Source: Thioalkalivibrio sp. (GTDB lineage: Bacteria > Pseudomonadota > Gammaproteobacteria > Ectothiorhodospirales > Ectothiorhodospiraceae). Taken from it: a DNA stretch of 64,000 nt. Both the position numbers and the translations under genes were made by a program. Under the pieces are notes generated by a model. That model was not told where the DNA came from, made no database searches, and saw nothing but the letters and a program-made list of their open reading frames with translations. How positions within the stretch are numbered: the stretch's first letter is position 1; every line of letters starts with the position of its first letter. Shown in pieces: positions 4,097-19,360 of the stretch. Location: assembly GCF_041685615.1 (NCBI RefSeq), contig NZ_JAWLFK010000001.1, positions 17,766-81,765 on the forward strand. The letters are read 5' to 3'.

Positions 4097-5485
4097 TCAG
4101 TCGCCGGCGACCGTCATGGACTCGACCAAGATGGAACCGGTGTGGATGTTGCCGCGGCGGTCGACGTCGGTGCCCACGGCCGCCATCCGCTGGAACATGT
4201 CCTTCAGGTTGCCGGCGATGGTGATCTCCTCCACCGGGTACTGCAGCTCGCCGTTCTCCACCCAGAAACCGGCCGCCCCCCGCGAGTAGTCGCCGGTGAC
4301 CATGTTCACCCCCTGGCCGATCAACTCGGTGACGAGGAACCCGGTCCCCATCTCCGCCAGCAGGGAGGCGAAGTCCTTGTCACCCGGGGCCACGGTCACA
4401 TTGCGCGCCCCACCGGCGTTGCCGGTGGTCTCGAGCCCGAGACGGCGCGCCGCGTAACTGTCGAGGGTGTAACTTTGCAGCACGCCGTCGGCGATCAGGG
4501 GGCGGTTGCGGGTGCGCACGCCCTCGCCATCAAAGGGCGCGCTACCCAGCGCGCGCGGGGTCAGCGGGCACTCCTCGATCTGCATCCAGGCGGGGAACAC
4601 TGTCTCGCCGACGGCGTTCAGCAGGAACGAGCTCTCGCGGTACTGCGCCGGACCGGAGATCGCACGGGTGAAGCTGCCAATCAGCGTGCGCGCCATCTCC
4701 GGCGCGAACAGCACCGGACAGTTACGGGTGGACAGCTTGCGCCCGCCCAGCCGGCGCACGGTGCGCTCGGCGGCCTCGCGACCGACCTGCTCGGCGGCGA
4801 TCAGGTCATCCGCGTGCCGCGCGACAGTGTAGGCATAGTCGCGCTGCATGCCGGCAGCATTGCGGGCCACCAGCGCGCAGGACAGCGAGTGGCGCGTGCT
4901 GCGATAACCGCCCATGAACCCCTGGCTGTCACCGAGAAAGGCGATCGCGCGCCGGGTACTGATACTGGCACCCTCGGAGTTCTCGATGCGCTCGTCGGCC
5001 GCGAATCCGGCGGCCTCAATGGCACGCGCCAGCTCGGTGGCATCAGCGGCGCCGCAATCCCACGGGTGGTCCAGATCGAGGTCATCCCAGTCGGCCGCCT
5101 TGAACGCGGGGTCGGGCATCCCGGCGTACGGGTCCGGCTCGGTATAGCGGGCAATGCGGCAGGCCGCCTCGACCGTGTCGATCAGGGCCTGGTCGCTGAA
5201 ATCGGTGGTGGAGGCAGCGCCCTTGGATTGGCCGATATAGACGATCAGCGAAAGGCTCTGGTCGCGCTCGTGCTCGAGCGTCTCGATCTCGCCCTTGCGC
5301 ACGCCCAGCTCCAGGCCGACGCTGTGGCTGACCACGGTCTGGACGCCCGAGGCACCGCGCTCGCGCGCGGCCTCCAGCGTGCGCTGCACCCGCGCCTGGA
5401 GGGACTCCGGCGAATGGGACAGGGCCTGGACCTCGCCTTCCTGGGACACGGGTTCCGGGATCGCGCGTTCGGGAGATGTACTCAT
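4097..5485 (-). CDS. pmbA: Metalloprotease PmbA/TldE
   Basis: PFDGEG, GQGVNMVTGDYSRGAAGFWVENGE and EITIAGNL motifs. Confidence 0.96.
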   Translation of the reverse strand: MSTSPERAIPEPVSQEGEVQALSHSPESLQARVQRTLEAARERGASGVQTVVSHSVGLELGVRKGEIETLEHERDQSLSLIVYIGQSKGAASTTDFSDQALIDTVEAACRIARYTEPDPYAGMPDPAFKAADWDDLDLDHPWDCGAADATELARAIEAAGFAADERIENSEGASISTRRAIAFLGDSQGFMGGYRSTRHSLSCALVARNAAGMQRDYAYTVARHADDLIAAEQVGREAAERTVRRLGGRKLSTRNCPVLFAPEMARTLIGSFTRAISGPAQYRESSFLLNAVGETVFPAWMQIEECPLTPRALGSAPFDGEGVRTRNRPLIADGVLQSYTLDSYAARRLGLETTGNAGGARNVTVAPGDKDFASLLAEMGTGFLVTELIGQGVNMVTGDYSRGAAGFWVENGELQYPVEEITIAGNLKDMFQRMAAVGTDVDRRGNIHTGSILVESMTVAGD

Positions 5486-5526
5486 GCAGGGTTCCGCTAC
5501 TCGATGGCTGATCGGGGATCTTGAGG

Positions 5527-5553
5527 AAAAGGCCCCGGGCCGTATGGCCCGGG
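5527..5553 (-). terminator. Possible terminator hairpin between the small ORF and pmbA
   Basis: cccgggcc-gtat-ggcccggg stem, followed on the minus strand by gccTTTT. Confidence 0.45.
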
Positions 5554-5574
5554 CGGGGACCGGTCGAGGGCCTT

Positions 5575-5838
5575 CTAGTCGAACCGGGTGCCGTGCTTGT
5601 GGACCGCGCCGGCGTTGCCCCAGCGCTCCATGTCGTCGACGTGCACGCCGACCCAGTAGAGCATGCCGACGCTGTCGCGCGTCCAGCCGCCCACCAGGTC
5701 CTGGCCTTCGCCCAGCTCGATGTGGTGGGCGAATTGCTCGGCCTTTTCACGCGCACGGAAGACATGCCACTGCACGATCTTGTCGTGGCCGTTCCCTTCC
5801 GGCAGGGAACGTTCCTGTTCAAGGAAATCGAGATTCAT
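5575..5838 (-). CDS. Hypothetical protein, 87 aa
   Basis: ATG with upstream GGAGG; natural-looking composition; fills the tldD-pmbA gap. Confidence 0.75.
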   Translation of the reverse strand: MNLDFLEQERSLPEGNGHDKIVQWHVFRAREKAEQFAHHIELGEGQDLVGGWTRDSVGMLYWVGVHVDDMERWGNAGAVHKHGTRFD

Positions 5839-5880
5839 TCTGCTGCCTCCTTGTCGCCCTTTTTTCCGGTGCCGCGCCCG

Positions 5881-7323
5881 TCAGGCCGCCTGGGTACCGC
5901 CCACGGTCATGCCATCAATGCGAAGCGTGGGCTGCCCCACGCCGACCGGCACGCCCTGGCCCTCCTTGCCGCAGGTGCCGATGCCGGAATCGAGCTTCAT
6001 GTCGTTCCCGATCATGGACACCCGAGTCAGGACATCCGGACCATTCCCGATCAGGGTCGCACCCTTGACCGGGTACGTCACCTTGCCGTTCTCCACCCGG
6101 TAGGCCTCCGAAGCGGAAAACACGAACTTGCCGGAGGTGATATCCACCTGGCCACCGCCAAAGTTGACCGCGTACAGGCCATCGTCCACCGAGGCCAGGA
6201 TCTCCTCCGGATCAGCGTCGCCCCCGAGCATGTAGGTATTGGTCATGCGCGGCATCGGGAGCCGGGCATAGGACTCGCGGCGGCCATTGCCAGTCGAGCC
6301 CGTACCCATCAGCCGGGCGTTCATCTCGTCCTGCATGTAGCCACGCAGCACGCCGTCCTCGATCAGCACGGTTTGCTGGGTCGGGTTGCCCTCGTCGTCG
6401 ACATTCAGCGATCCGCGACGACCCTCCAGGGTGCCGTCGTCGACAATGGTGATGCCCCGGGCCGCCACCTGTTCGCCGACGCGCCCGGAGAACGCCGAGG
6501 TCCCCTTGCGGTTGAAATCCCCCTCCAGCCCGTGGCCAATGGCCTCGTGCAGCAGCACGCCCGGCCAGCCGGGGCCCAGCACCACCTTCATGGTGCCGGC
6601 CGGGGCCTCGCGTGCCTCAAGGTTCACCAGGGCCTGGCGCACCGCCTCGCGGGCATAGCCGGCGGCACGACCCTCCTCCCGGAAGTACTGGTAGCCGAAG
6701 CGACCGCCACCACCGGACGTACCGGACTCGCGCCGGCCGCCCTGCTCGACGATGACCTGCACATTCAGGCGCACCAGCGGACGCACATCAGTGGTCATTT
6801 CGCCACGGGCGTTGAGCACCAGCACAACCTCGTGTACCCCGGCCAGCGAACACATCACCTGGGTCACGCGGGAATCCTCGGCGCGGGCGACGGCGTCCAC
6901 TTCCTTGAGGAGATCGATCTTCGCCTGCTCGCCGAGCGAATCCAGCGGGTTGTCGGGGGCATAAAGCGCCGGGCACGAGGGCGAACGCGACGCCACCGCG
7001 ATGCGCCCGCTCTGGCCGGCGCTGGCGATGCTGCGCGCGGTCTTCGCGGCCTCCAGCATGGCCGGCATCGCGATGTCGTCGGAGTAGGCGAACCCGGTCT
7101 GCTCGCCGCGCACCACGCGGATACCGACCCCGCGCTCGATATTGAAGCTGGCGGATTTCACGATGCCATCCTCCAGCGACCAGCCTTCCTGGCTGGCGAA
7201 CTGGAAGTAGCAGTCCCCCCCATCGATACCGTGACCGAAGGTGGTGCCCAGAAGGGTGCTCAGCTCGCTGTCGCCGAGACCGGCGGGGTCGAGCAGGGTC
7301 TGTTGCGCAAGGCGGTCGATCAT
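5881..7323 (-). CDS. tldD: Metalloprotease TldD
   Basis: GWPGVLLHEAIGHGLEGDFNRKG, RMTNTYM and CGKEGQGVPVGVGQPTL motifs; start at ATG 7323. Confidence 0.97.
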   Translation of the reverse strand: MIDRLAQQTLLDPAGLGDSELSTLLGTTFGHGIDGGDCYFQFASQEGWSLEDGIVKSASFNIERGVGIRVVRGEQTGFAYSDDIAMPAMLEAAKTARSIASAGQSGRIAVASRSPSCPALYAPDNPLDSLGEQAKIDLLKEVDAVARAEDSRVTQVMCSLAGVHEVVLVLNARGEMTTDVRPLVRLNVQVIVEQGGRRESGTSGGGGRFGYQYFREEGRAAGYAREAVRQALVNLEAREAPAGTMKVVLGPGWPGVLLHEAIGHGLEGDFNRKGTSAFSGRVGEQVAARGITIVDDGTLEGRRGSLNVDDEGNPTQQTVLIEDGVLRGYMQDEMNARLMGTGSTGNGRRESYARLPMPRMTNTYMLGGDADPEEILASVDDGLYAVNFGGGQVDITSGKFVFSASEAYRVENGKVTYPVKGATLIGNGPDVLTRVSMIGNDMKLDSGIGTCGKEGQGVPVGVGQPTLRIDGMTVGGTQAA

Positions 7324-7475
7324 GGAGTCCTCTTGGGTTCCGGAGATCCGTCGTCCCCCCTGAGTGAGGACGGAACGGTGTTCGGCCATTCAGTATGGAG
7401 CTTGGGGCACCGCTCGCGCTTTCAAGCGCGCGGGCGTTGCGGGTTTATCCAGCGCCACGGCCAATCGCAAGGCCA

Positions 7476-8306
7476 TCATGTGGTTCCGGGGCACGGCAGG
7501 CGGCGGTGCTCAACCGCCGGGAAGCTGTTGCGGATGCGCTCGGCCTGAGTATGGTCCAGATTGGCTACCAGCACCCCGGGATTGCGCTGCAGCTGCCCCA
7601 CCACGCGCCCCCAGGGGTCCACCAGGGCGCTGTGTCCGAAGGTCTCGCGGCCGTTCACATGGAAACCACCCTGGGCCGCGGAGAGCATGTAGTACTGGTT
7701 CTCGATGGCACGGGCCCGCAGCAGGACATCCCAGTGTGCCTGTCCGGTCTGCGCGGTGAAGGCCGCCGGCAGGGCCACCCATTCCGCGCCCTGGTCCAGC
7801 AGTGCCCGGAACAGCTCGGGGAAGCGCAGGTCGTAGCAGATCGCCAGGCCCATGCGCCCCACCGGGGTATCCACGACCACCACGCGGTCACCGCTCTCGA
7901 AGACCTTCGACTCGGTGTAGGCCTCGGTGCTGTCGGGCAGACGCACATCAAACAGGTGGATCTTGTCGTAGCGCGCCACCTGCTGCCCCTGATCGTCGAA
8001 CACCAGACAGGCCGAGCGCGCACGCTTGCCGTCCTTCGTCTGCAACGGGATGGTTCCGCCGACGATCCACAGCCCCAATCGCCGGGCCTGCTCCGCCAGG
8101 AATGCCTGTAACGGCCCGGCGCCGTCGGCAACCTCAGCGATCTCGAGGACACCGGTTTCCTGCATACCCATGAAGGCGAAGTTCTCCGGCAGCACGGCCA
8201 GGCACGCGCCCTTGTCGGCGGCCTCCTGCAGCAATCGCTTCGCCTCCAGCAGATTCGCCTGGGGCTGGGGTCCGGAGGCCATCTGGATGGCCGCTACCTG
8301 AGTCAT
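7476..8306 (-). CDS. Carbon-nitrogen hydrolase (Nit1/deaminated glutathione amidase-like)
   Basis: LPENF, YDKIHLFD, ICYDLRFPEL and RAIENQ give the Glu-Lys-Cys triad; conserved yhdP-nit-tldD synteny. Confidence 0.93.
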   Translation of the reverse strand: MTQVAAIQMASGPQPQANLLEAKRLLQEAADKGACLAVLPENFAFMGMQETGVLEIAEVADGAGPLQAFLAEQARRLGLWIVGGTIPLQTKDGKRARSACLVFDDQGQQVARYDKIHLFDVRLPDSTEAYTESKVFESGDRVVVVDTPVGRMGLAICYDLRFPELFRALLDQGAEWVALPAAFTAQTGQAHWDVLLRARAIENQYYMLSAAQGGFHVNGRETFGHSALVDPWGRVVGQLQRNPGVLVANLDHTQAERIRNSFPAVEHRRLPCPGTT

Positions 8307-12421: not shown

Positions 12422-13954
12422 TCAGACGAAAACCACGTCGAACTGTTCCTGAGTGTAGAGCGTCTCCACCTGGAAGCGGATGGGGATGCCGACGAAGCTC
12501 TGCAGTTCCGCCAGCGCGGCGGATTCCTCGTCCAGCAGCAGGTCGATCACGTTCTGCGACGCGAGCACCCGCAACTCGCGCGCGTCGTACTGACGCACTT
12601 CGCGCAGGATCTCGCGAAACAGCTCGTAGCACACCGTCTCCGCCGATTTCAGGTAGCCACGCCCGCCGCAAACCTGACACGGCTCGCACATCTGGTGTTC
12701 TAGGCTCTCTCGGGTGCGCTTGCGGGTCATCTCCACCAGCCCCAGCGGCGAGACATCGCAGATCTGCGTCTTCACGTGATCGCGTTCCAGGGCCTTTTCC
12801 AGCGCGCGGATCACCTGGCGCTTGTGCTCGTCGTCCTGCATGTCGATGAAATCGATGATGATGATTCCGCCCAGATTGCGCAGGCGCAGCTGGCGACCGA
12901 TCGCCTGGGCCGCCTCCAGGTTGGTCTTGAAGATGGTCTCCTCGAGCTTGCGATGCCCGACGAAGCCACCGGTATTGATGTCGACGGTGGTCATCGCCTC
13001 GGTCTGATCGAAGATCAAGTAGCCGCCGGATTTCAGTTCCACCTTGCGCTCCAGGGCACGATGGATCTCCTCCTCGACGTTGAACAGGTCGAAGATCGGG
13101 CGCTCGCCCGGATAATGTTCGATGCGGCCGATCAACTCCGGCAGGTAGCGCTCCACGAAGCCACAGACCTTCTGATAGGTCTCGCGCGAGTCGATACGGA
13201 TGCGCTCGATATCCACACCCACCATGTCGCGCAGGATACGCTCGACCAGCGGCAGGTCGACGTAGACCTCGGTCCCCGGCGGCGCCCCGGCGGCCCGCTC
13301 CTGCAGGCCGTCCCAGACCTTCTTCAGGAAAGCCGTGTCGTTGTACATCGCCTCGTAGTCCGCCAATTCCGCGGCGGTGCGCACGATAAAGCCGTGCTGG
13401 GGCGCCAGTTCGTCGCGCAGCTGCTCGATGGACTCGCGCAGCCGTGCGCGCACACCCTCGTCCTCGATGCGCGTGCTCACGCCGACGTTGGACTGGTTCG
13501 GCATCAGCACCAGGTTGCGCGATGGCAGCGTGATGTAGGTCGTCAGGCGCGCGCCCTTGGAGCCGAGCGGATCCTTGACCGCCTGCACCAGAATCTCCTG
13601 CCCGTCGCGCAGCAGCTCGCGGATGCCCTCGCGGGCCGCGGGGGCCGGCGCACCGTTTCCGTTGCCATTGCCCGCGGGCGATGTCCCCGTGGAGATGCCC
13701 TGGCCATTGAGCTCCTCGCGCTCCACCGGGGCCACGTCGGAGGCATGCAGGAAGGCCGTGCGCTCCAGCCCGATATCCACGAAGGCCGCGTCCATGCCCG
13801 GCAGCACGCGCACCACCCGGCCCTTGTAGATATTGCCCACGATGCCGCGGCGGTGGGTACGTTCCAGGTGCAGCTCGGTCAGGACGCCATTTTCCACCAG
13901 GGCCACGCGGCTCTCTTGGGGCGTCACGTTCATCAGGATCTCGGTTCCGGTCAT
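12422..13954 (-). CDS. rng: Ribonuclease G
   Basis: VGNIYKGRVVRVLPGMDAAFVDIG, KGARLT, TTVDINTGGFVG, RNLGGIIIIDFIDM and CQVCGGRG motifs. Confidence 0.97.
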   Translation of the reverse strand: MTGTEILMNVTPQESRVALVENGVLTELHLERTHRRGIVGNIYKGRVVRVLPGMDAAFVDIGLERTAFLHASDVAPVEREELNGQGISTGTSPAGNGNGNGAPAPAAREGIRELLRDGQEILVQAVKDPLGSKGARLTTYITLPSRNLVLMPNQSNVGVSTRIEDEGVRARLRESIEQLRDELAPQHGFIVRTAAELADYEAMYNDTAFLKKVWDGLQERAAGAPPGTEVYVDLPLVERILRDMVGVDIERIRIDSRETYQKVCGFVERYLPELIGRIEHYPGERPIFDLFNVEEEIHRALERKVELKSGGYLIFDQTEAMTTVDINTGGFVGHRKLEETIFKTNLEAAQAIGRQLRLRNLGGIIIIDFIDMQDDEHKRQVIRALEKALERDHVKTQICDVSPLGLVEMTRKRTRESLEHQMCEPCQVCGGRGYLKSAETVCYELFREILREVRQYDARELRVLASQNVIDLLLDEESAALAELQSFVGIPIRFQVETLYTQEQFDVVFV

Positions 13955-14030
13955 GCGCTCTTCTTGTTCTTGATTTCACGGGCAGACCGCCAAACCCGCG
14001 CGCGGGCGGGGCGGCGGTCCGGGATGTCGG

Positions 14031-15128
14031 CTACTTCGAGACGGCTTCCGCCGGGTCGGTCTCGGCCGCCGGCGGAGGCCGCTGGGCACGTGGCCAGGAC
14101 TTAATCACCGCGTGTACCAGGGTCGCCAGCGGGATGGCGAAGAACACCCCCCACAGGCCCCAGATGCCGCCGAACACGAACACCGCGGCGATGATTGCCA
14201 CCGGGTGCAGGTTGACGACCTCCGAAAACAGCAATGGCACCAGCACATTGCCGTCGAGGAACTGGATCACCCCGTAGGCAATCAGCACCCAGGCAAACTC
14301 GGAACTCAGCCCGAACTGGAAGTACGCGACCGCGGCGACCGGGATGGTCACCACGGCCGCGCCGATATACGGGATGATCACCGAGATGCCCACCATGAAC
14401 GACAGCAGGACGGCGTACTCCAGCCCGAACCAGTTGAAGGTCAGGAAGCTGACTGCCCAGACCATGACGATCTCGATGAACTTGCCGCGCACATAGCTGG
14501 CGATCTTCAGGTTCACCTCGCGCCAGACCTGGCTGGCCAGGTGGGTATCCCGGGGCATGAAACCACGCACCCAGCCGAGGATCAGGTCGCGGTCCTTGAG
14601 CATGAAGAACACCATCAGCGGGACCACGACCAGGTAGATCACCACGTCCACGATGTGCCGCGCCGAAGACAGCGAGAACGACACCACGCGCTGCCCCAGC
14701 AGGGTCGCCTCGGCGCGGATGGCGCCCATCAGCTCAAGCACCTGATCGTCGGTAATCAGCTGTGGATAGCGCTCGGGGAGCTGCAACAGCAGGTTCTGGC
14801 CCTCGGAGATCATGCCCGGCAGTTCGCGCACCAGTTGGGTCACCTGGGCCGACATCAGCGGGACCACGCTGAACAGCGCGGCGACCGTCAGCGCCAGAAA
14901 GGCCAGCAGCACGAAGGTCACGGCGAGGATGCGCGGGATGTGGAAGCGCGCGAGCTTTTGCACCGCCCCCTCCAGCAGGTAGGCGATGATTAGCGAGGCC
15001 AGTAGCGGCGCCAGGATACGCCCGGCAAAGATGATGATCAGGAACCCCGCCAGCAGCAGAAACGCCAGAATCACCACCTGCGGGTCGGTGAAATGACGCT
15101 GGTACCACTGGCGCAGGATGTCGATCAT
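14031..15128 (-). CDS. AI-2E family transporter (PerM-like)
   Basis: Multi-TM protein with IPYIGA, QFLDGNVLVPLLFSEVVNLHPVAII and WGVFFAIPLA motifs. Confidence 0.92.
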   Translation of the reverse strand: MIDILRQWYQRHFTDPQVVILAFLLLAGFLIIIFAGRILAPLLASLIIAYLLEGAVQKLARFHIPRILAVTFVLLAFLALTVAALFSVVPLMSAQVTQLVRELPGMISEGQNLLLQLPERYPQLITDDQVLELMGAIRAEATLLGQRVVSFSLSSARHIVDVVIYLVVVPLMVFFMLKDRDLILGWVRGFMPRDTHLASQVWREVNLKIASYVRGKFIEIVMVWAVSFLTFNWFGLEYAVLLSFMVGISVIIPYIGAAVVTIPVAAVAYFQFGLSSEFAWVLIAYGVIQFLDGNVLVPLLFSEVVNLHPVAIIAAVFVFGGIWGLWGVFFAIPLATLVHAVIKSWPRAQRPPPAAETDPAEAVSK

Positions 15129-15613
15129 CGCGAGGGCGTTCCCGAGTCCGGGTCGTCACCGGCATCCGCCCGTCGCGCGGGATCCTGCGCGACGGCCTTC
15201 TCGTAATGGGTGCGGAAGACCACCTCGAGCTCGTCGATCACCTCCACCGCCGGGCGCCCCTGCATCACGTGCTGCCCCATCAGGGCCGAGGTCTCGTTCA
15301 GCAGCTTGGAGCGATCCAGCATGTGATAGGTCGCGGACAGCCGGCGCATCGCCTTGATCACCGACTCGTTCTCCGGGCGCGGAATGGGTTCCGGTTCGGG
15401 GACCGGCTCCGGCGCGGGAGCCGGCGACTCCTGCTCCAGGAAACGGGCAAACTTCAGCAAGCTGGCCTGGTCCTCGGGCGACAGCCGCGCGGCGATCTCG
15501 GCGATCGCCCTGGCCGGGTCCTCGCGGCCCTTCTTGCGCGCGCCGCCGAGCACCGAGCCGAGATCCCCACCGGGCAGGCCCCCGTCGTTGCCCGTGCCGA
15601 GCGGTGGAATCAT
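15125..15613 (-). CDS. Hypothetical helical protein (PRPENESVIKAMRRLSATYHMLD motif)
   Basis: ATG at 15613 overlaps the upstream stop (ATGA); its own stop overlaps the PerM start (ATGA); has a Pro/Glu linker. Confidence 0.8.
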   Translation of the reverse strand: MIPPLGTGNDGGLPGGDLGSVLGGARKKGREDPARAIAEIAARLSPEDQASLLKFARFLEQESPAPAPEPVPEPEPIPRPENESVIKAMRRLSATYHMLDRSKLLNETSALMGQHVMQGRPAVEVIDELEVVFRTHYEKAVAQDPARRADAGDDPDSGTPSR

Positions 15614-16356
15614 CCCTCGTCCTCGATCTTCAGGCTGAACACCGGCATCTTGCGGCGTTCCTGCATCAGGCCCAGCGCCTTCACCAGGGCCACGATCACG
15701 TCCTCGGTCACCTTCTGCATCTCGCCCCATTCCATGCGCGCCTCGCCCAGGAGCTCACCCATGTTCGGGGGCGGGTTGTGGCGCGCCTCCATGATGATGT
15801 CCTCGAGCATCCCGGGCTTCATCTCGGGTCGGAACAGGATGCCATAGGTCAGTTCGTCCGGCCGGACCGCCAGCCAGTCGCCGTCGTCGTCCACCAGGAC
15901 CGGCTGGACGTCCTCCGGCAGGTCCACCCGGCCGTTGACCAGCTGCAGGACCCGGCGGCCGTCCAGGGCCTCCGCCAGTTCGTCGCCCTGCCCGGCCGCG
16001 GTCTTGTGGGCGGTGACGAAGCGGGCGCGGTACATCGGGTCCTCCTGGGCGGTGCCGCCGGCCTGCTCGGCCACGAGCAACCCGCCCATGCCGATTCCCA
16101 CCACCGGACGCTTCGAACGGCGGAAAATATCGATCAGCGAAAGCTCATCGGGGACCTGGGGATTCTCCTCGTGATCCGCGGTCGGCCAGGCACCGCCCAG
16201 CAGCCACAACCCGTCGAACTGCGCGGCGGATCCCGGCAGGTCCTGCCCCACGAAGGGGCGGTAATAGGAGAACCCGATATCGCGTTTTTCCAGCTGCGAC
16301 TCGATCAGGCCGAGAAACTCGGAATACGTATGCTGCACCACGCAGTAATTCTTCAT
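15610..16356 (-). CDS. Class I glutamine amidotransferase-like protein with degenerate catalytic triad
   Basis: VVQH..E, LLGG, PVVGIGMGG (canonical GICLG) and GILFRPE (canonical QFHxE). Confidence 0.85.
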   Translation of the reverse strand: MKNYCVVQHTYSEFLGLIESQLEKRDIGFSYYRPFVGQDLPGSAAQFDGLWLLGGAWPTADHEENPQVPDELSLIDIFRRSKRPVVGIGMGGLLVAEQAGGTAQEDPMYRARFVTAHKTAAGQGDELAEALDGRRVLQLVNGRVDLPEDVQPVLVDDDGDWLAVRPDELTYGILFRPEMKPGMLEDIIMEARHNPPPNMGELLGEARMEWGEMQKVTEDVIVALVKALGLMQERRKMPVFSLKIEDEG

Positions 16357-16398
16357 GTCGCGTCAATCCTGTTTGAATTCGGGTCGGGGCGAACGGGC

Positions 16399-17292
16399 CT
16401 AACCGGTGCAGTACCCACGCAGGAATTGCATCAGCACCTCCAGCGTGGGCACGCGGAACTTCTGCCGCGCGTGCACCAGCGAGATCGGCCGTTCCAGCGG
16501 CGGCGAAAGCGGGAGCGCCACCAGGTCACCGAGGGACAGTTCCTTGGCCACCACCGCCTCGGACAACACCGAGATCCCCATGCCGGCCACCACCGCACCC
16601 TTGATCGCCTCCGAGCTGCCCAGTTCCATGCAGCCGCGCAGGCTGTTGCGGTCGTATCCGGCGTGCCCAAGGTACTCCATGATGACCTCGCGGGTCCCGG
16701 AACCCTCCTCGCGGCATATGAATGGGCGTTCGATGAAATCCGCGACCTGGGCGGTGTCGCGCCCTGCCAGTTCGTGGTCCGGCGGCACAATCAGCCGGAG
16801 CTGATCCACCAGGCAGGGCTGCACCTGCAGGCTGCGATGGGTGACCGGGGCCTCGACGATGCCGAGATCCACGCTCCCCTCCTCGACCATCACCACCACA
16901 CTCTCGGTATTGCCGACGCGCAGGCGGATCCCGATATCCGGATGCTCGCGGCGGAAGGCCCCCAGCAGGGCCGGCAGCATGTATTCCGCCACCGTGGTAC
17001 TGGCTCCAATCACCAGGGCCCCGCCATCCGCACCCTTCAGCTCACGCAGGGCCGCCTCCAGCTCGCCGTAGGTATCAAAGATGCGCTCGGCATATCGTTG
17101 AACCAGGCGGCCGGCGTCCGTCAGTGTCACTCGATTGTGATTGCGATCGAACAACCGGGTGTCCAGCTGCTCTTCCAGTTGACGCACCTGGAAGGTCACC
17201 GCGGGCTGCGTCATGTGCAGCACCTCGGCGGCCCGGGTAAAGGACAGCAGCCGCGCCACCGTAAGAAAGACCTGCAAACGCCGATCGGCCAT
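16399..17292 (-). CDS. LysR family regulator, CysL/YeiE-like
   Basis: HTH SFTRAAEVLHMTQPAVTFQVRQLE; effector domain with GASTT and REEGSGTRE; start at ATG 17292. Confidence 0.93.
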   Translation of the reverse strand: MADRRLQVFLTVARLLSFTRAAEVLHMTQPAVTFQVRQLEEQLDTRLFDRNHNRVTLTDAGRLVQRYAERIFDTYGELEAALRELKGADGGALVIGASTTVAEYMLPALLGAFRREHPDIGIRLRVGNTESVVVMVEEGSVDLGIVEAPVTHRSLQVQPCLVDQLRLIVPPDHELAGRDTAQVADFIERPFICREEGSGTREVIMEYLGHAGYDRNSLRGCMELGSSEAIKGAVVAGMGISVLSEAVVAKELSLGDLVALPLSPPLERPISLVHARQKFRVPTLEVLMQFLRGYCTG

Positions 17293-17476
17293 GCTGCCCC
17301 GCCCGATAAAGTGGAAATCCGTTCGAACGGGGATGCTACCAAGCCCCCGCGACCGGCAACAGCAACCCCGCGCCGACGCGCGAACCATCCGGCACCCTTG
17401 CAAGGACAATTCCACCACGGACGCCACAAGGTCCGTAAGCGTCCTCAAGGCAACAGCACAAACCGGGGAAACCGGT

Positions 17477-19220
17477 ATGCCGCAGTCCCCGTACGATGCC
17501 TGGTCGGATGCACGCTCACGGGGAATCCCCGGCCACTGGCGACTCGCCGGGGGTGCCAGTGCAGTGGTGCTGATGGCCCTGATCGCCCTGCTGGTCTACC
17601 AGACTGGCGGCACGTCCACCGCCTATCTCAACTTTATCCTGATTCCGGTGCTGCTCGGGGCCGCGCTGTTCGGCCTGTGGGGCGGCCTGGCCTTCGGGCT
17701 CCTGGCGGGCGTTGTCCTCGGCCCCCTGATGCCGCTGGACACCGCCGCCGGGCTCGCCCAGCCCGCCCTGAACTGGCTTACGCGCGCGGGCATTTATGTC
17801 GTGCTCGGCGGGTTCTCCGGCTGGCTGTTCGACACCGTGTGCCGACACTCCAACCGGCTCCTGGAACAGGCCTACCACAACCCGGTAACCGGCCTGCCGA
17901 ACCGCGAATCGCTGGAACAGTACGTGCACCAACTGATGCAGGAGGCGGACCGCCCCGAGGCCCGAGCCACCCGTGTGTTCGTGATCAGCCTGCAGATGGA
18001 CAACTACCCCGACAGCATCGGCGCGCTGGGCTTCGCCGCCGAACGCCCCCTGCTGCGTGCCATTACCCAGCGCCTGCAAGCGGTGGCCGCACCCGCCGGC
18101 GCCACGCTGTTCCACGTCCATGACGACCACTTCGCATTGATCCTGCCGCACCGCAGCCGCAAGGACGCCCTGGCGGTCACACGCAGCGCGATCGACAGCC
18201 TGCAGGCCCCGTTCGAGGTTCTCGATATCCCGGTCTATCTCGGCGCCCACGCGGGCGTGTCGTCCTTTCCTTTCCATGAACAGGACGAACCGACCCGCCT
18301 GCTCACCAAGGCCTGGATGGCGATGCACGAGGCCAGCCACTCCGGCCGCCGTTCTCGTAGTTACAACCGGCACCGCGACGACCACAGCCTGGACACGGTG
18401 GAACTGCTGGGCTAGCTACAGAGCGCGCTCTACGATGGCTAGCTGCACCTGCACTACCAGCCCAAGGTCGAGCTCGCGAGCGGGCACGTGATGGGTCTCG
18501 AGGCCCTGCTGCGCTGGGAGCATCCTACCCGCGGACGCATCGCGCCCGGGGCGTTCATCCCGCCCGCCGAACGCACCGGGTTGATCCACGCCCTCACGGA
18601 CCGGGTCCTCGACCTGGCACTGGCCGACATCACCCGGCTTCGCGCGCAGGGCCTGGAAATGCCGGTCAGTGTGAACATCTCGGCCCCCAACTTCCTGGAT
18701 CCGCTCTTTGCCGAGCACCTGCTGAAAAAGGTCCACGCCTCCGGCCTGCCGCCCTGCGCGGTGGAACTCGAATTTACCGAGACCGCCGTGATGGCCGACC
18801 CCGATGAGGTAATCCGCGCACTGCGGCGCCTTACCGGGGCGGGCCTGGAACTCGCCATCGACGACTTTGGCACCGGCTACTCATCGCTCGTCTATCTCAA
18901 GCGCATGCCCGTCACCACCCTCAAGATCGACCAGGCCTTCATGCGTCAGATGCTGGGGCACCCGGTCGACGCCCAGATCCCGCGCCAGCATCAGCCTGGC
19001 GCGGGATCTGGGCCTGAACGTCGTCGCGGAAGGCGCGGAGGACGCGGAGGACGCGGAGGACGCGGCCACCCTGGAGCGGCTCCGCGAATACGGATGCGAT
19101 GCGGCCCAGGGCCACGGCATCGCCCGACCAATGCCGCTCGACGCGATGCTCGACTGGGCCCATGTGCAGGGGACCGCATCCGGCCAATGCCAACACCGTC
19201 ACCAGGGGAACCTCCACTGA
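17477..19220 (+). pseudogene. Membrane-anchored degenerate-GGDEF plus EAL protein, disrupted
   Basis: TM region, then a GGDEF-like domain (HDDHF), in-frame TAG at 18413 and 18440, and an EAL domain (YQPK, EALLRW, ELEFTE, IDDFGTGYSS, KID). A frameshift near 18980 continues as RASISLARDLGLNVVAEG. Confidence 0.88.
19035..19065 (+). repeat. 9-bp tandem repeat (gcggaggac x3.4) inside the EAL pseudogene
   Basis: Read directly; it expands the AEGVED motif to AEGAEDAEDAEDA. Confidence 0.9.
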
Positions 19221-19360
19221 CGGCGACAAGTCCGGAAGCATGCATTCCCCGGATTCTCCGGCCGCAGACCCCGGTTTTCGGCCCGGCATCCCTTGCGCCG
19301 CCCCCGGTGCTGCGCTATAGTCCGCCGTCTTTCTGGTAGACCCAAATTCCGGAGTCCCCG

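What the first reader, a model, noticed from the sequence alone, without database searches (positions are those of the whole stretch)
15610..16356. Glutamine amidotransferase-like pseudoenzyme with both catalytic Cys and His replaced
Seen: the nucleophile elbow reads GIGMG (codon ggc) instead of GICLG, and the C-terminal motif reads FRPE instead of FHxE, yet the ORF is intact and coupled by an ATGA overlap to the next gene. Established: class I GATases need a Cys-His-Glu triad. Inference: the fold has been repurposed as a ligand-binding or scaffold subunit; Arg in the pocket hints at an anion ligand such as a sulfur oxyanion.
Basis: partly seen in the sequence, partly recalled or inferred. Interest (0 to 1): 0.65.

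Follow-up and report, generated by a model that had tools for sequence, protein, structure and literature searches.

The report
Dead amidotransferase tied to sHdr sulfur oxidation
This intact gene encodes a glutamine-amidotransferase-shaped protein that has lost its catalytic cysteine and histidine, and in the genomes sampled it is present almost exactly where the sHdr sulfur-oxidation pathway is present and decays where that pathway was lost, so it is probably an overlooked helper of that pathway.

Summary
ORF 15610-16356(-) has a class-I GATase fold (AF2 pLDDT 92; TM 0.74-0.79 to TM1158/DnfC). It has Gly89 where the nucleophile Cys should be and Arg176 where the His should be.

This is not strain decay. 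Gly89, Arg176, Pro177, Glu178 and Lys180 are invariant in 120 homologues, and dN/dS is 0.02-0.07 for close pairs.

In a tree the family groups at 99% support with a second Cys-less clade. Members of that clade lie inside shdr/lipoate-assembly clusters at the position of LipX (Hden_0687). The literature only names LipX a "putative glutamine amidotransferase".

In an even sample of 400 Gammaproteobacteria the window's family occurs in 24 genomes from 17 families. sHdrB1 occurs in those same 24 plus one incomplete assembly (Fisher p = 1e-37).

Dsr-only relatives that lack sHdr lack the gene. One of them, and one further sHdr-less genome without DsrB, keep frameshifted relics of it between intact neighbours.

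The downstream 162-aa protein and the LysR/AI-2E neighbours are a general gammaproteobacterial module (136 of 400 genomes), not dedicated partners.

Best reading: a non-catalytic accessory factor of the sHdr-LbpA system, the gammaproteobacterial counterpart of LipX. Its molecular role is inferred, not shown. The proposed sulfur-oxyanion ligand is untested.

The parts
15610..16356 (-). Cys-less class-I GATase-fold protein (248 aa), 'FRPE' family. It is the gammaproteobacterial sister of LipX.
   Evidence: ORF and translation. AF2 pLDDT 91.9. Foldseek TM 0.74-0.79 to 1o1y, 8khs, 3m3p and 3l7n. Tree placement. Co-occurrence with sHdr.
16090..16092 (-). Codon GGC = Gly89, at the nucleophile-elbow position where active GATases have Cys (GIGMG in place of GICLG).
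   Evidence: Gly in 121/121 sequences.
15817..15834 (-). Motif F175-R176-P177-E178-M179-K180. Arg replaces the triad His, Glu178 is retained, and Lys180 is invariant and shared with the LipX-like clade.
15628..15669 (-). Conserved C-terminal tail LMQERRKMPVFSLK (aa 230-243). L230, M231, E233, R234 and K236 are invariant. The tail is modelled with low confidence, so it is a candidate docking peptide. LipX-like proteins end just after its first two residues (L230-M231) and lack the rest.
   Evidence: Invariant columns. pLDDT 53-56 for the last two blocks. Absence in the LipX-like clade.
15125..15613 (-). 162-aa helical protein (p162): weak DUF2281-like N-terminal helix, Pro/Glu-rich linker, conserved C-terminal helical domain. 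It is translationally coupled (ATGA) on both sides. It is a general gammaproteobacterial protein, not sHdr-specific.
   Evidence: 136 of 400 genomes; no PDB relative.
14031..15128 (-). AI-2E family transporter, the last gene of the co-directional cluster.
   Evidence: Pfam PF01594, E 1.6e-70. Conserved synteny.
16399..17292 (-). LysR-type regulator (YeiE / selenium-metabolism-LysR-like), 42 nt upstream of the GATase-like gene. It is also present where that gene is absent.
   Evidence: Pfam HTH_1 plus LysR_substrate; NCBIfam NF040786 235 bits and YeiE 216 bits, both below cut-off. Synteny.

Best explanation
The gene encodes a catalytically dead class-I glutamine-amidotransferase-fold protein. 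It cannot form the glutamyl-thioester because the nucleophile Cys is Gly, the His is Arg, and the Gln at Cys+4 of the GxCxGxQ elbow motif (a glutamine contact, from general knowledge) is Leu. It is the gammaproteobacterial counterpart, as a sister subfamily, of LipX, the uncharacterised 'putative glutamine amidotransferase' encoded in shdr/lipoate-assembly clusters of Alphaproteobacteria. [quoted passage not shown] Shown: the fold, the loss of the triad, purifying selection, common descent with the shdr-cluster clade, near-perfect phyletic coupling to sHdr, and decay after sHdr loss. Inferred: the most likely role is a binding or adaptor protein acting on the lipoate-binding protein LbpA or its maturation by sLpl(AB)/LipS1/LipS2. 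The remodelled, enlarged and positively charged former glutamine pocket (G89, R176, K180) would hold an acyl-amide or carboxylate ligand, such as the octanoyl- or lipoyl-lysine arm or free octanoate/lipoate. The conserved disordered C-terminal tail would dock a partner. Its position inside the LysR-p162-AI-2E operon is a conserved address rather than evidence that those three are its partners.
For: Fold: AF2 pLDDT 91.9; Foldseek to stand-alone GATases at TM 0.74-0.79. Dead triad, aligned to GICLG/FHLE and invariant in 120 homologues and in alignment A1. Purifying selection: dN/dS 0.02-0.07. Tree: the Cys-less clade has 99% SH-aLRT and holds the FRPE family (99) and the LipX-like clade (99), separate from 56 Cys-His-Glu GATases. 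LipX-like genes lie at sLpl(AB)->X->DsrE->sHdrC1B1A or ArsR->X->DsrE->sHdrC1B1AHC2B2. This matches the published lipX = Hden_0687, between slpl(AB) and dsrE3C (PMC10332631, PMC10451225). The window gene is the only LipX homologue in its own genome, which has sHdr on contig C9. Class-wide even sample: 24 genomes have both, 0 have the GATase-like gene only, 1 has sHdr only, 375 have neither; p = 1e-37; 17 GTDB families. Own order: 37 both, 3 neither, 1 sHdr only among genomes at least 90% complete. Phylum sample: the same 4 genomes carry sHdrB1 and a Cys-less GATase, plus one weak extra hit. Relatives with DsrB but no sHdr lack the gene. Frameshifted or stop-containing relics lie between intact LysR and p162 in two sHdr-less genomes. 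The Thioalkalivibrio lipS1-slpl(AB)-lipT-lipS2 helper plasmid gave only a 157-Da mercaptooctanoyl modification in E. coli (PMC10332631), which leaves room for a missing factor.
Against: There is no direct evidence of any physical partner or ligand. The role in LbpA maturation, rather than in the sHdr reaction, sulfur relay or product handling, is inference. In Gammaproteobacteria the gene is never next to shdr or lip genes; it always sits between LysR and p162/AI-2E, which could point to a function with those neighbours. One nearly complete sHdr-positive genome (G054) lacks it, so it may not be strictly required. Some LipX-like genes sit beside sox or DsrE/Mo-enzyme genes rather than shdr. The two subfamilies differ at the former His/Glu positions (R-P-E versus H/N-P-G), so they need not bind the same thing.
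Confidence: 0.68

Rival explanations
1. It is a ligand-sensing or adaptor subunit of the LysR-p162-AI-2E module. In sHdr-bearing bacteria it would couple that regulator/transporter module to an sHdr-derived metabolite, for example by binding sulfite or another sulfur oxyanion through Arg176/Lys180 and controlling export or transcription. This is essentially the first reader's idea.
For: The position LysR->GATl->p162->AI-2E is invariant in 43 + 20 loci across 17 or more families. There is ATGA translational coupling to p162 and from p162 to AI-2E, and no terminator-like site between the genes. The LysR is YeiE-like. YeiH, the E. coli YeiE target (general knowledge), is discussed as a sulfite-export candidate in H. 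denitrificans (PMC11582611). The pocket substitutions are positively charged.
Against: The module exists without the gene in more than 100 sampled genomes, and it stays intact when the gene decays. The sister clade in Alphaproteobacteria is encoded with slpl(AB)/dsrE3C/shdr and has no AI-2E, LysR or p162 nearby. Arg176 is not shared by that clade.
Confidence: 0.15
2. It is still an enzyme: a hydrolase or transferase that uses a non-canonical mechanism in the old pocket, such as water activated by Glu178/Lys180/Arg176. It would act on an amide or thioester of the lipoate pathway, for example releasing free octanoate for sLpl(AB) or acting as a lipoamidase.
For: Glu178 of the triad and the oxyanion-strand glycines (G54-G55, G87, G91) are retained, and K180 is invariant. 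Many LipX-like proteins carry Glu at the nucleophile position together with His (40% of 127 sequences; the third subtype reads GIELG...FHPQ). sLpl(AB) accepts only free octanoate or lipoate, and its source is unexplained (PMC10332631).
Against: No residue able to act as a nucleophile is conserved at the elbow across the clade (Gly in all FRPE proteins, Gly or Glu in LipX-like). The His/Glu positions differ between the subfamilies. No precedent for this is known to me in this fold.
Confidence: 0.1
3. The co-occurrence with sHdr reflects shared ancestry or lifestyle only, and the protein has an unrelated housekeeping role in these lineages.
For: Genomes are phylogenetically non-independent. All carriers are sulfur oxidisers. 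The gene is not physically linked to shdr in Gammaproteobacteria.
Against: Presence and absence switch together inside single families and genera: at least four co-absences in the window's own family, plus contrasts in families f69, f202 and f214. Three of those co-absent relatives (G016, G053, G012) carry DsrB, i.e. probably still oxidise sulfur by the Dsr route, yet lack the gene. There are two independent pseudogene relics. The sister clade is physically embedded in shdr clusters.
Confidence: 0.06
4. It is a strain-specific decaying glutamine amidotransferase, that is, a recent loss of Cys and His.
For: Gly89 (GGC) is one base away from Cys (TGC).
Against: Gly, Arg and neighbouring residues are invariant in 120 homologues and across 17 families. 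dN/dS is 0.02-0.07. True decayed copies look quite different, with frameshifts and stops.
Confidence: 0.01

Closest known systems
LipX (Hden_0687 of Hyphomicrobium denitrificans): 'putative glutamine amidotransferase' of the lipS1-lipT-lipS2-slpl(AB)-lipX / dsrE3C-shdr island (PMC10332631, PMC10451225, PMC11582611). Drawn as 'GATase1' in hdr-lbpA clusters in PMC6067878.
   Same: Same Cys-less GATase1-fold clade (99% support). The two share N-terminal QH..E.LG..E..E.R.I.F.Y.RPF, the G-x-[G/E]-x-G elbow, and P..K.GM.ED.IME. Both are found only in sHdr-bearing genomes in the samples taken. No function has been tested for either.
   Different: The window's family has F-R-P-E-x-K where LipX-like proteins have G-[H/N]-P-G-x-K. 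It always has Gly at the elbow, whereas LipX-like proteins have Gly or Glu. It carries an extra invariant C-terminal tail (ERRKxPVF). It is encoded away from shdr/lip genes, between a LysR gene and p162/AI-2E. That the clade fetched here equals Hden_0687 rests on identical gene position, not on the Hden_0687 sequence itself.
Stand-alone class-I glutamine amidotransferases of the PRK06490/PRK07053 'GMP synthase-like' group (PDB 1o1y TM1158, 8khs DnfC, 3m3p, 3l7n, 9xfs).
   Same: Same fold and length (TM 0.74-0.79). Same N-terminal H.E.LG motif and elbow glycines. Weak but significant sequence similarity.
   Different: Those proteins keep Cys-His-Glu and the GxCxGxQ signature. This one has Gly, Arg and Leu at the Cys, His and Gln positions. 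It scores far below the curated cut-offs: Pfam 15.3 against 22.8, and NF005072 53 against 339.
Viral pseudo-glutamine-amidotransferases (herpesvirus vGAT; review PMC7605207).
   Same: The concept only: a GAT homologue without catalytic residues, kept under selection as a binding or adaptor protein.
   Different: Those are FGARAT-derived large proteins of eukaryotic viruses with a different partner logic, and they are not specifically related in sequence. Seen only as a title and abstract.

Membership tests
Class-I (triad) glutamine amidotransferase, Pfam PF00117 | GATase1 alpha/beta fold with a nucleophile elbow | tested here: met
   AF2 pLDDT 91.9. Foldseek prob 1.00 and TM 0.74-0.79 to 1o1y, 8khs, 3m3p.
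Class-I (triad) glutamine amidotransferase, Pfam PF00117 | Catalytic Cys at the elbow (G-x-C-x-G) | tested here: not met
   Gly89 aligned to the Cys of 9xfs_A. Gly in 121/121 family members.
Class-I (triad) glutamine amidotransferase, Pfam PF00117 | Catalytic His, and Glu two residues later (H-x-E) | tested here: not met
   His is replaced by the invariant Arg176. Only Glu178 is kept.
Class-I (triad) glutamine amidotransferase, Pfam PF00117 | Score above the curated family thresholds | tested here: not met
   PF00117: 15.3 bits against 22.8. NF005072: 53.2 against 339. NF005458: 37.6 against 250.
Class-I (triad) glutamine amidotransferase, Pfam PF00117 | Glutaminase activity | not testable with these tools
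   Needs a biochemical assay. Predicted to be absent.
LipX (sHdr/lipoate-assembly-associated GATase1-like protein) | Belongs to the Cys-less GATase1-like clade that contains the shdr-cluster genes | tested here: met
   Clade support 99%. The FRPE family is sister to the LipX-like subclade. Shared clade-specific motifs.
LipX (sHdr/lipoate-assembly-associated GATase1-like protein) | Encoded directly after slpl(AB) and/or before dsrE3C-shdrC1B1A | tested here: not met
   In the window and in 63 related loci the gene lies between LysR and p162/AI-2E. In the window's own genome sHdr is on contig C9 and sLpl(AB) on C65.
LipX (sHdr/lipoate-assembly-associated GATase1-like protein) | Occurs only in genomes with an sHdr system | tested here: met
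   24 of 24 carriers have sHdrB1, and 24 of 25 sHdrB1 genomes carry it. Order-level and phylum-level samples agree.
LipX (sHdr/lipoate-assembly-associated GATase1-like protein) | G-[H/N]-P-G-x-K motif at the former His/Glu site | tested here: not met
   The window family has F-R-P-E-x-K, invariant.
LipX (sHdr/lipoate-assembly-associated GATase1-like protein) | Direct sequence identity or orthology with Hden_0687 | not tested
   The Hden_0687 sequence could not be fetched. Equivalence of the fetched clade rests on gene order (against PMC10332631 and PMC10451225).

The most novel reading that the evidence does not exclude
A Cys-less GATase1-fold protein, in three subtypes (FRPE, LipX-like GHPG, and GIELG/FHPQ), is a universal and so far unrecognised core accessory of type-I sHdr-LbpA sulfur oxidation in Pseudomonadota. 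It would be either the missing factor needed to complete lipoylation of LbpA, which heterologous assembly without it stalls at the mono-thiolated mercaptooctanoyl stage, or a new non-catalytic subunit that hands the LbpA lipoyl arm to the sHdr complex.
Probability: 0.3. Interest if true: 0.8.

Novelty: new variant of a known kind. Interest (0 to 1): 0.62.

Why it matters
The sHdr-LbpA pathway is a widespread route of cytoplasmic sulfur oxidation. Its mechanism and full parts list are still open.

This analysis turns a gene annotated as 'GMP synthase' or 'type 1 glutamine amidotransferase' into a specific candidate component. It cannot be an amidotransferase. In the samples taken it predicts the presence of sHdr across 17 gammaproteobacterial families with a single exception, an incomplete assembly. 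It is discarded when sHdr is lost.

It also shows that the named but unstudied LipX belongs to the same dead-enzyme clade. So the label 'putative glutamine amidotransferase' used in the sHdr literature is probably wrong.

The prediction can be tested directly in existing genetic and heterologous systems: H. denitrificans deletion strains and the Thioalkalivibrio lipoylation helper plasmid. The gene is also a useful single-gene marker for sHdr-type sulfur oxidisers in metagenomes.

Tried and rejected
**Strain-specific decay.** Rejected: the residues are invariant, dN/dS is low, and real relics look different.

**p162 (15125-15613) as a dedicated partner.** Rejected: it occurs in 52 of 55 genomes of the order and 136 of 400 of the class, including sHdr-less genomes where the GATase-like gene is missing.

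**A link to dsr or to sulfur lithotrophy in general.** Rejected: Dsr-only relatives lack the gene.

**Pfam and NCBIfam.** They gave only sub-threshold GATase matches for the protein and nothing meaningful for p162.

**Fold search of the p162 model.** No PDB relative (best E 5).

**Promoter and terminator scan of 13900-17600.** Uninformative: 0 promoter-like sites and 3 weak terminator-like sites, against 1.7 expected.

**Literature search for pseudo-GATase plus LysR.** It found only viral pseudo-GATs.

**Pocket geometry.** The coordinates of the AF2 model were not available in the Python box. Pocket geometry, and the contacts of Arg176 and Lys180, could not be measured. No complex prediction was possible.

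**Apparent exceptions to the co-occurrence.**
- G034 (gene present, no sHdrB1) is an assembly gap: sHdrA is present.
- G347 (sHdr present, gene absent) also lacks p162 in a 91%-complete assembly, so the locus is probably unassembled.
- G054 remains a genuine exception.
Full report
**1. The observation**

The minus-strand ORF 15610-16356 is intact and encodes 248 aa. Residues 87-91 are GIGMG, with the Gly89 codon GGC at 16090-16092. Residues 175-178 are FRPE, with the Arg176 codon CGA at 15829-15831.

A sequence search of PDB aligns these motifs with GICLG and FHLE of a solved glutamine amidotransferase (9xfs_A, E 7.6e-8; also 3m3p and 1o1y). Gly and Arg therefore sit exactly at the nucleophile Cys and general-base His positions. 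The triad Glu (E178) is kept.

The Gln at Cys+4 of the GxCxGxQ signature, which in active enzymes contacts glutamine (general knowledge of the family), is Leu93.

The stop codon overlaps the start of the next ORF (15125-15613) as ATGA. That ORF overlaps the AI-2E transporter gene (14031-15128) in the same way. A LysR gene (16399-17292) ends 42 nt upstream.

**2. It is a GATase fold but not a GATase**

Curated models match only below threshold: Pfam PF00117 gives 15.3 bits against a 22.8 cut-off, and NCBIfam PRK06490 gives 53 against 339.

An AlphaFold2 model built on 38 family sequences is confident (pLDDT 91.9, pTM 0.89). It matches stand-alone class-I GATases: TM1158 (1o1y), DnfC (8khs), 3m3p and 3l7n, at TM 0.74-0.79 and probability 1.00. 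Only the last ~14 residues are modelled poorly, although they are invariant in sequence (LMQERRKMPVF).

**3. It is a conserved family under selection**

The 120 closest database proteins are 60-92% identical. They come from Thioalkalivibrio, Ectothiorhodospira, Ectothiorhodosinus, Acidihalobacter, Sulfurirhabdus and many MAGs, and are mostly named 'GMP synthase' or 'type 1 glutamine amidotransferase'. All of them have G87, G89, G91, R176, P177, E178, K180 and P181.

Pairwise dN/dS against close orthologues is 0.02-0.07, at dS 0.3-0.75. This is a stable pseudoenzyme family.

**4. Relatives**

An exhaustive HMMER scan of 1.84 billion representatives shows a compact family: 10 representatives below 1e-30. 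Next comes a second group that also lacks the Cys, with G-[IF]-[G/E]-L-G and FGFAG-[H/N]-P-G-x-K. Only beyond that come ordinary GICLG/FHPE enzymes.

In a maximum-likelihood tree the non-Cys proteins form one clade (99% SH-aLRT). It has two well-supported subclades, the window's 'FRPE' family (99) and the 'LipX-like' group (99), plus one Glu/His/Gln lineage. This clade is separated from a clade of 57 sequences, 56 of them canonical Cys-His-Glu enzymes.

The two subclades share many clade-specific residues: QH..E.LG..E..E.R.I.F.Y.RPF, the elbow glycines, and P..K.GM.ED.IME. They differ at the old His/Glu site, and only the FRPE family has the C-terminal tail.

**5. What the sister clade is**

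Contigs encoding LipX-like proteins show these gene orders:
- sLpl(AB) -> X -> DsrE -> sHdrC1-B1-A-H (L045, L046; G458 and G540).
- SoxYZ / ArsR-type regulator -> X -> DsrE -> sHdrC1B1AHC2B2 (L047).
- Others lie beside soxXYZAB or beside DsrE plus a molybdoenzyme.

This is the position of lipX (Hden_0687) in Hyphomicrobium denitrificans, between slpl(AB) and dsrE3C. The sHdr literature only calls lipX a 'putative glutamine amidotransferase' (PMC10332631, PMC10451225, PMC11582611, and the 2026 preprint 10.64898/2026.10.01.755906). A 'GATase1' box is drawn in hdr-lbpA clusters in PMC6067878 without discussion.

In the searchable corpus I found no statement that LipX lacks the catalytic Cys, and no mention of an unlinked gammaproteobacterial homologue.

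**6. The window's gene tracks sHdr**

*Own genome.* It carries sHdrC1B1A-H on contig C9 and sLpl(AB) on C65. Its only LipX homologue is the window gene.

*Own order (55 genomes).* The gene is single-copy in 47 genomes and sHdrB1 is present in 47. One assembly gap was resolved: G034 has sHdrA. Among genomes at least 90% complete, the counts are then 37 with both, 3 with neither (G016, G003, G053) and 1 with sHdr only (G054).

*Even sample of 400 Gammaproteobacteria.* The gene is found in 24 genomes of 17 GTDB families, all with E <= 1e-69. sHdrB1 is found in the same 24 plus G347. G347 is a 91%-complete assembly that also lacks the neighbouring p162 gene. Fisher's exact p = 1e-37.

*Sample of 301 Pseudomonadota.* The four sHdrB1-positive genomes are the four with a clear Cys-less GATase. 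One further weak hit is probably a canonical enzyme.

*Controls for lifestyle.* The coupling is not just lifestyle. G016, G053 and G012 encode DsrB (the rDsr route) but no sHdr, and they lack the gene. G015 has Dsr, sHdr and the gene.

*Relics.* Two sHdr-less genomes keep wrecks of the gene exactly between intact LysR and p162. The wrecks have pieces in three reading frames, internal stops, a ~130-codon deletion, and substitutions at otherwise invariant residues. G053 and G012 have LysR abutting p162.

Presence and absence also switch together within families f69, f202 and f214.

**7. The neighbours are not sHdr-specific**

The order LysR -> GATl -> p162 -> AI-2E is kept in all 43 loci from named genomes, and at least LysR -> GATl in all 20 loci from other gammaproteobacterial families, most of them with p162 and AI-2E as well.

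A profile of p162 hits 136 of 400 Gammaproteobacteria. In sHdr-less genomes the arrangement is simply LysR -> p162 -> AI-2E. So the GATase-like gene is an sHdr-linked insert, or a selectively lost member, of a general module.

p162 is a ~120-aa helical protein. In this strain it carries a 35-aa Gly-rich N-terminal extension. It has no PDB relative. The ATGA coupling is real, but it is not evidence of a dedicated complex.

**8. Mechanism**

*Shown.*
- The protein has a GATase fold without the residues needed for thioester catalysis.
- It is under strong purifying selection.
- It shares ancestry with the shdr-cluster protein LipX.
- It is kept only with sHdr.

*Inferred.* It is a non-catalytic accessory factor of the sHdr-LbpA system.

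*Most likely step.* I favour the handling or maturation of the lipoate-binding protein LbpA, for three reasons:
- In Alphaproteobacteria lipX is the last gene of the lipS1-lipT-lipS2-slpl(AB) operon and is translationally coupled to slpl(AB) (PMC10332631).
- The Thioalkalivibrio helper plasmid without this gene produced only a 157-Da mercaptooctanoyl LbpA in E. coli, because the second sulfur insertion was inefficient.
- A GATase pocket is built to hold an acyl-amide with a carboxylate. Here it is enlarged (Cys to Gly), made more hydrophobic (Gln to Leu) and positively charged (Arg176, Lys180).

These three points are suggestive only. A role at the sHdr reaction itself, or with the LysR/AI-2E neighbours, is not excluded. 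The conserved, poorly modelled C-terminal tail looks like a docking peptide.

**9. Rivals and verdict**

The rivals are:
- a sensor or adaptor for the LysR/p162/AI-2E module (0.15);
- a non-canonical hydrolase (0.10);
- co-occurrence without functional linkage (0.06);
- strain-specific decay (0.01).

The finding is real, and it is more interesting than 'a dead enzyme'. It is a distinct, unlinked variant of the named but unstudied LipX. With the tools here it shows a very clean phyletic and decay signature that ties it to sHdr.

Limits:
- No experimental or structural evidence for a ligand or partner.
- The Hden_0687 sequence was not compared directly.
- Genome labels in the samples are coded, so taxon names for most carriers are unknown.

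Noticed in passing
window 14031-17292; loci L078-L089: LysR -> p162 -> AI-2E transporter is a conserved co-directional module in about a third of sampled Gammaproteobacteria (p162 profile hits 136 of 400). Its function is unknown. p162 is variously annotated as 'hypothetical', 'DUF2281' or, probably wrongly, 'Crp/Fnr family regulator', and it has no structural relative in PDB.
   Followed up: partly
L051 (G016:C1) 6245-6721; L078 (G131:C15) about 5450-5940: Two independent pseudogene relics of the GATase-like gene lie between intact LysR and p162, in genomes that lack sHdr. They carry frameshifts, internal stops and, in G016, a ~130-codon deletion.
   Followed up: yes
L094 (G453:C28) 6984-7589; L049 6001-6708 (P0151): A third Cys-less subtype has Glu at the nucleophile position and His-Pro-Gln at the old His-x-Glu site (GIELGGQL ... 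FHPQVK). It occurs in an sHdr-positive genome of another class. In one metagenome contig it lies beside DsrE_2 and a molybdopterin oxidoreductase. About 40% of LipX-like proteins also carry Glu at that position.
   Followed up: partly
G054 (L052, L055): One nearly complete relative has the sHdr genes but neither the GATase-like gene nor the LysR next to p162/AI-2E. It is the only clear exception to the co-occurrence.
   Followed up: partly
window 17213-19339 (+): The divergently placed GGDEF (17213-18415) and EAL (18488-19339) reading frames are split into two ORFs here, while tblastn shows both parts in related strains. This looks like an interrupted GGDEF-EAL gene, and another first-reader note reports in-frame stops at 18413 and 18440.
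   Followed up: no
window 15509-15613 (N-terminus of p162): In the window's species group p162 carries a ~35-residue Gly-rich N-terminal extension (MIPPLGTGNDGGLPGGDLGSVLGG...). Most homologues lack it (typical length 115-130 aa), and it is modelled with low confidence. It is what creates the ATGA overlap with the upstream gene.
   Followed up: partly
G445, G245, G403, G241, G300: In several gammaproteobacterial families the GATase-like locus and an sHdrB1 gene lie on the same contig, only 21-32 kb apart. This is loose neighbourhood rather than operon linkage.
   Followed up: no
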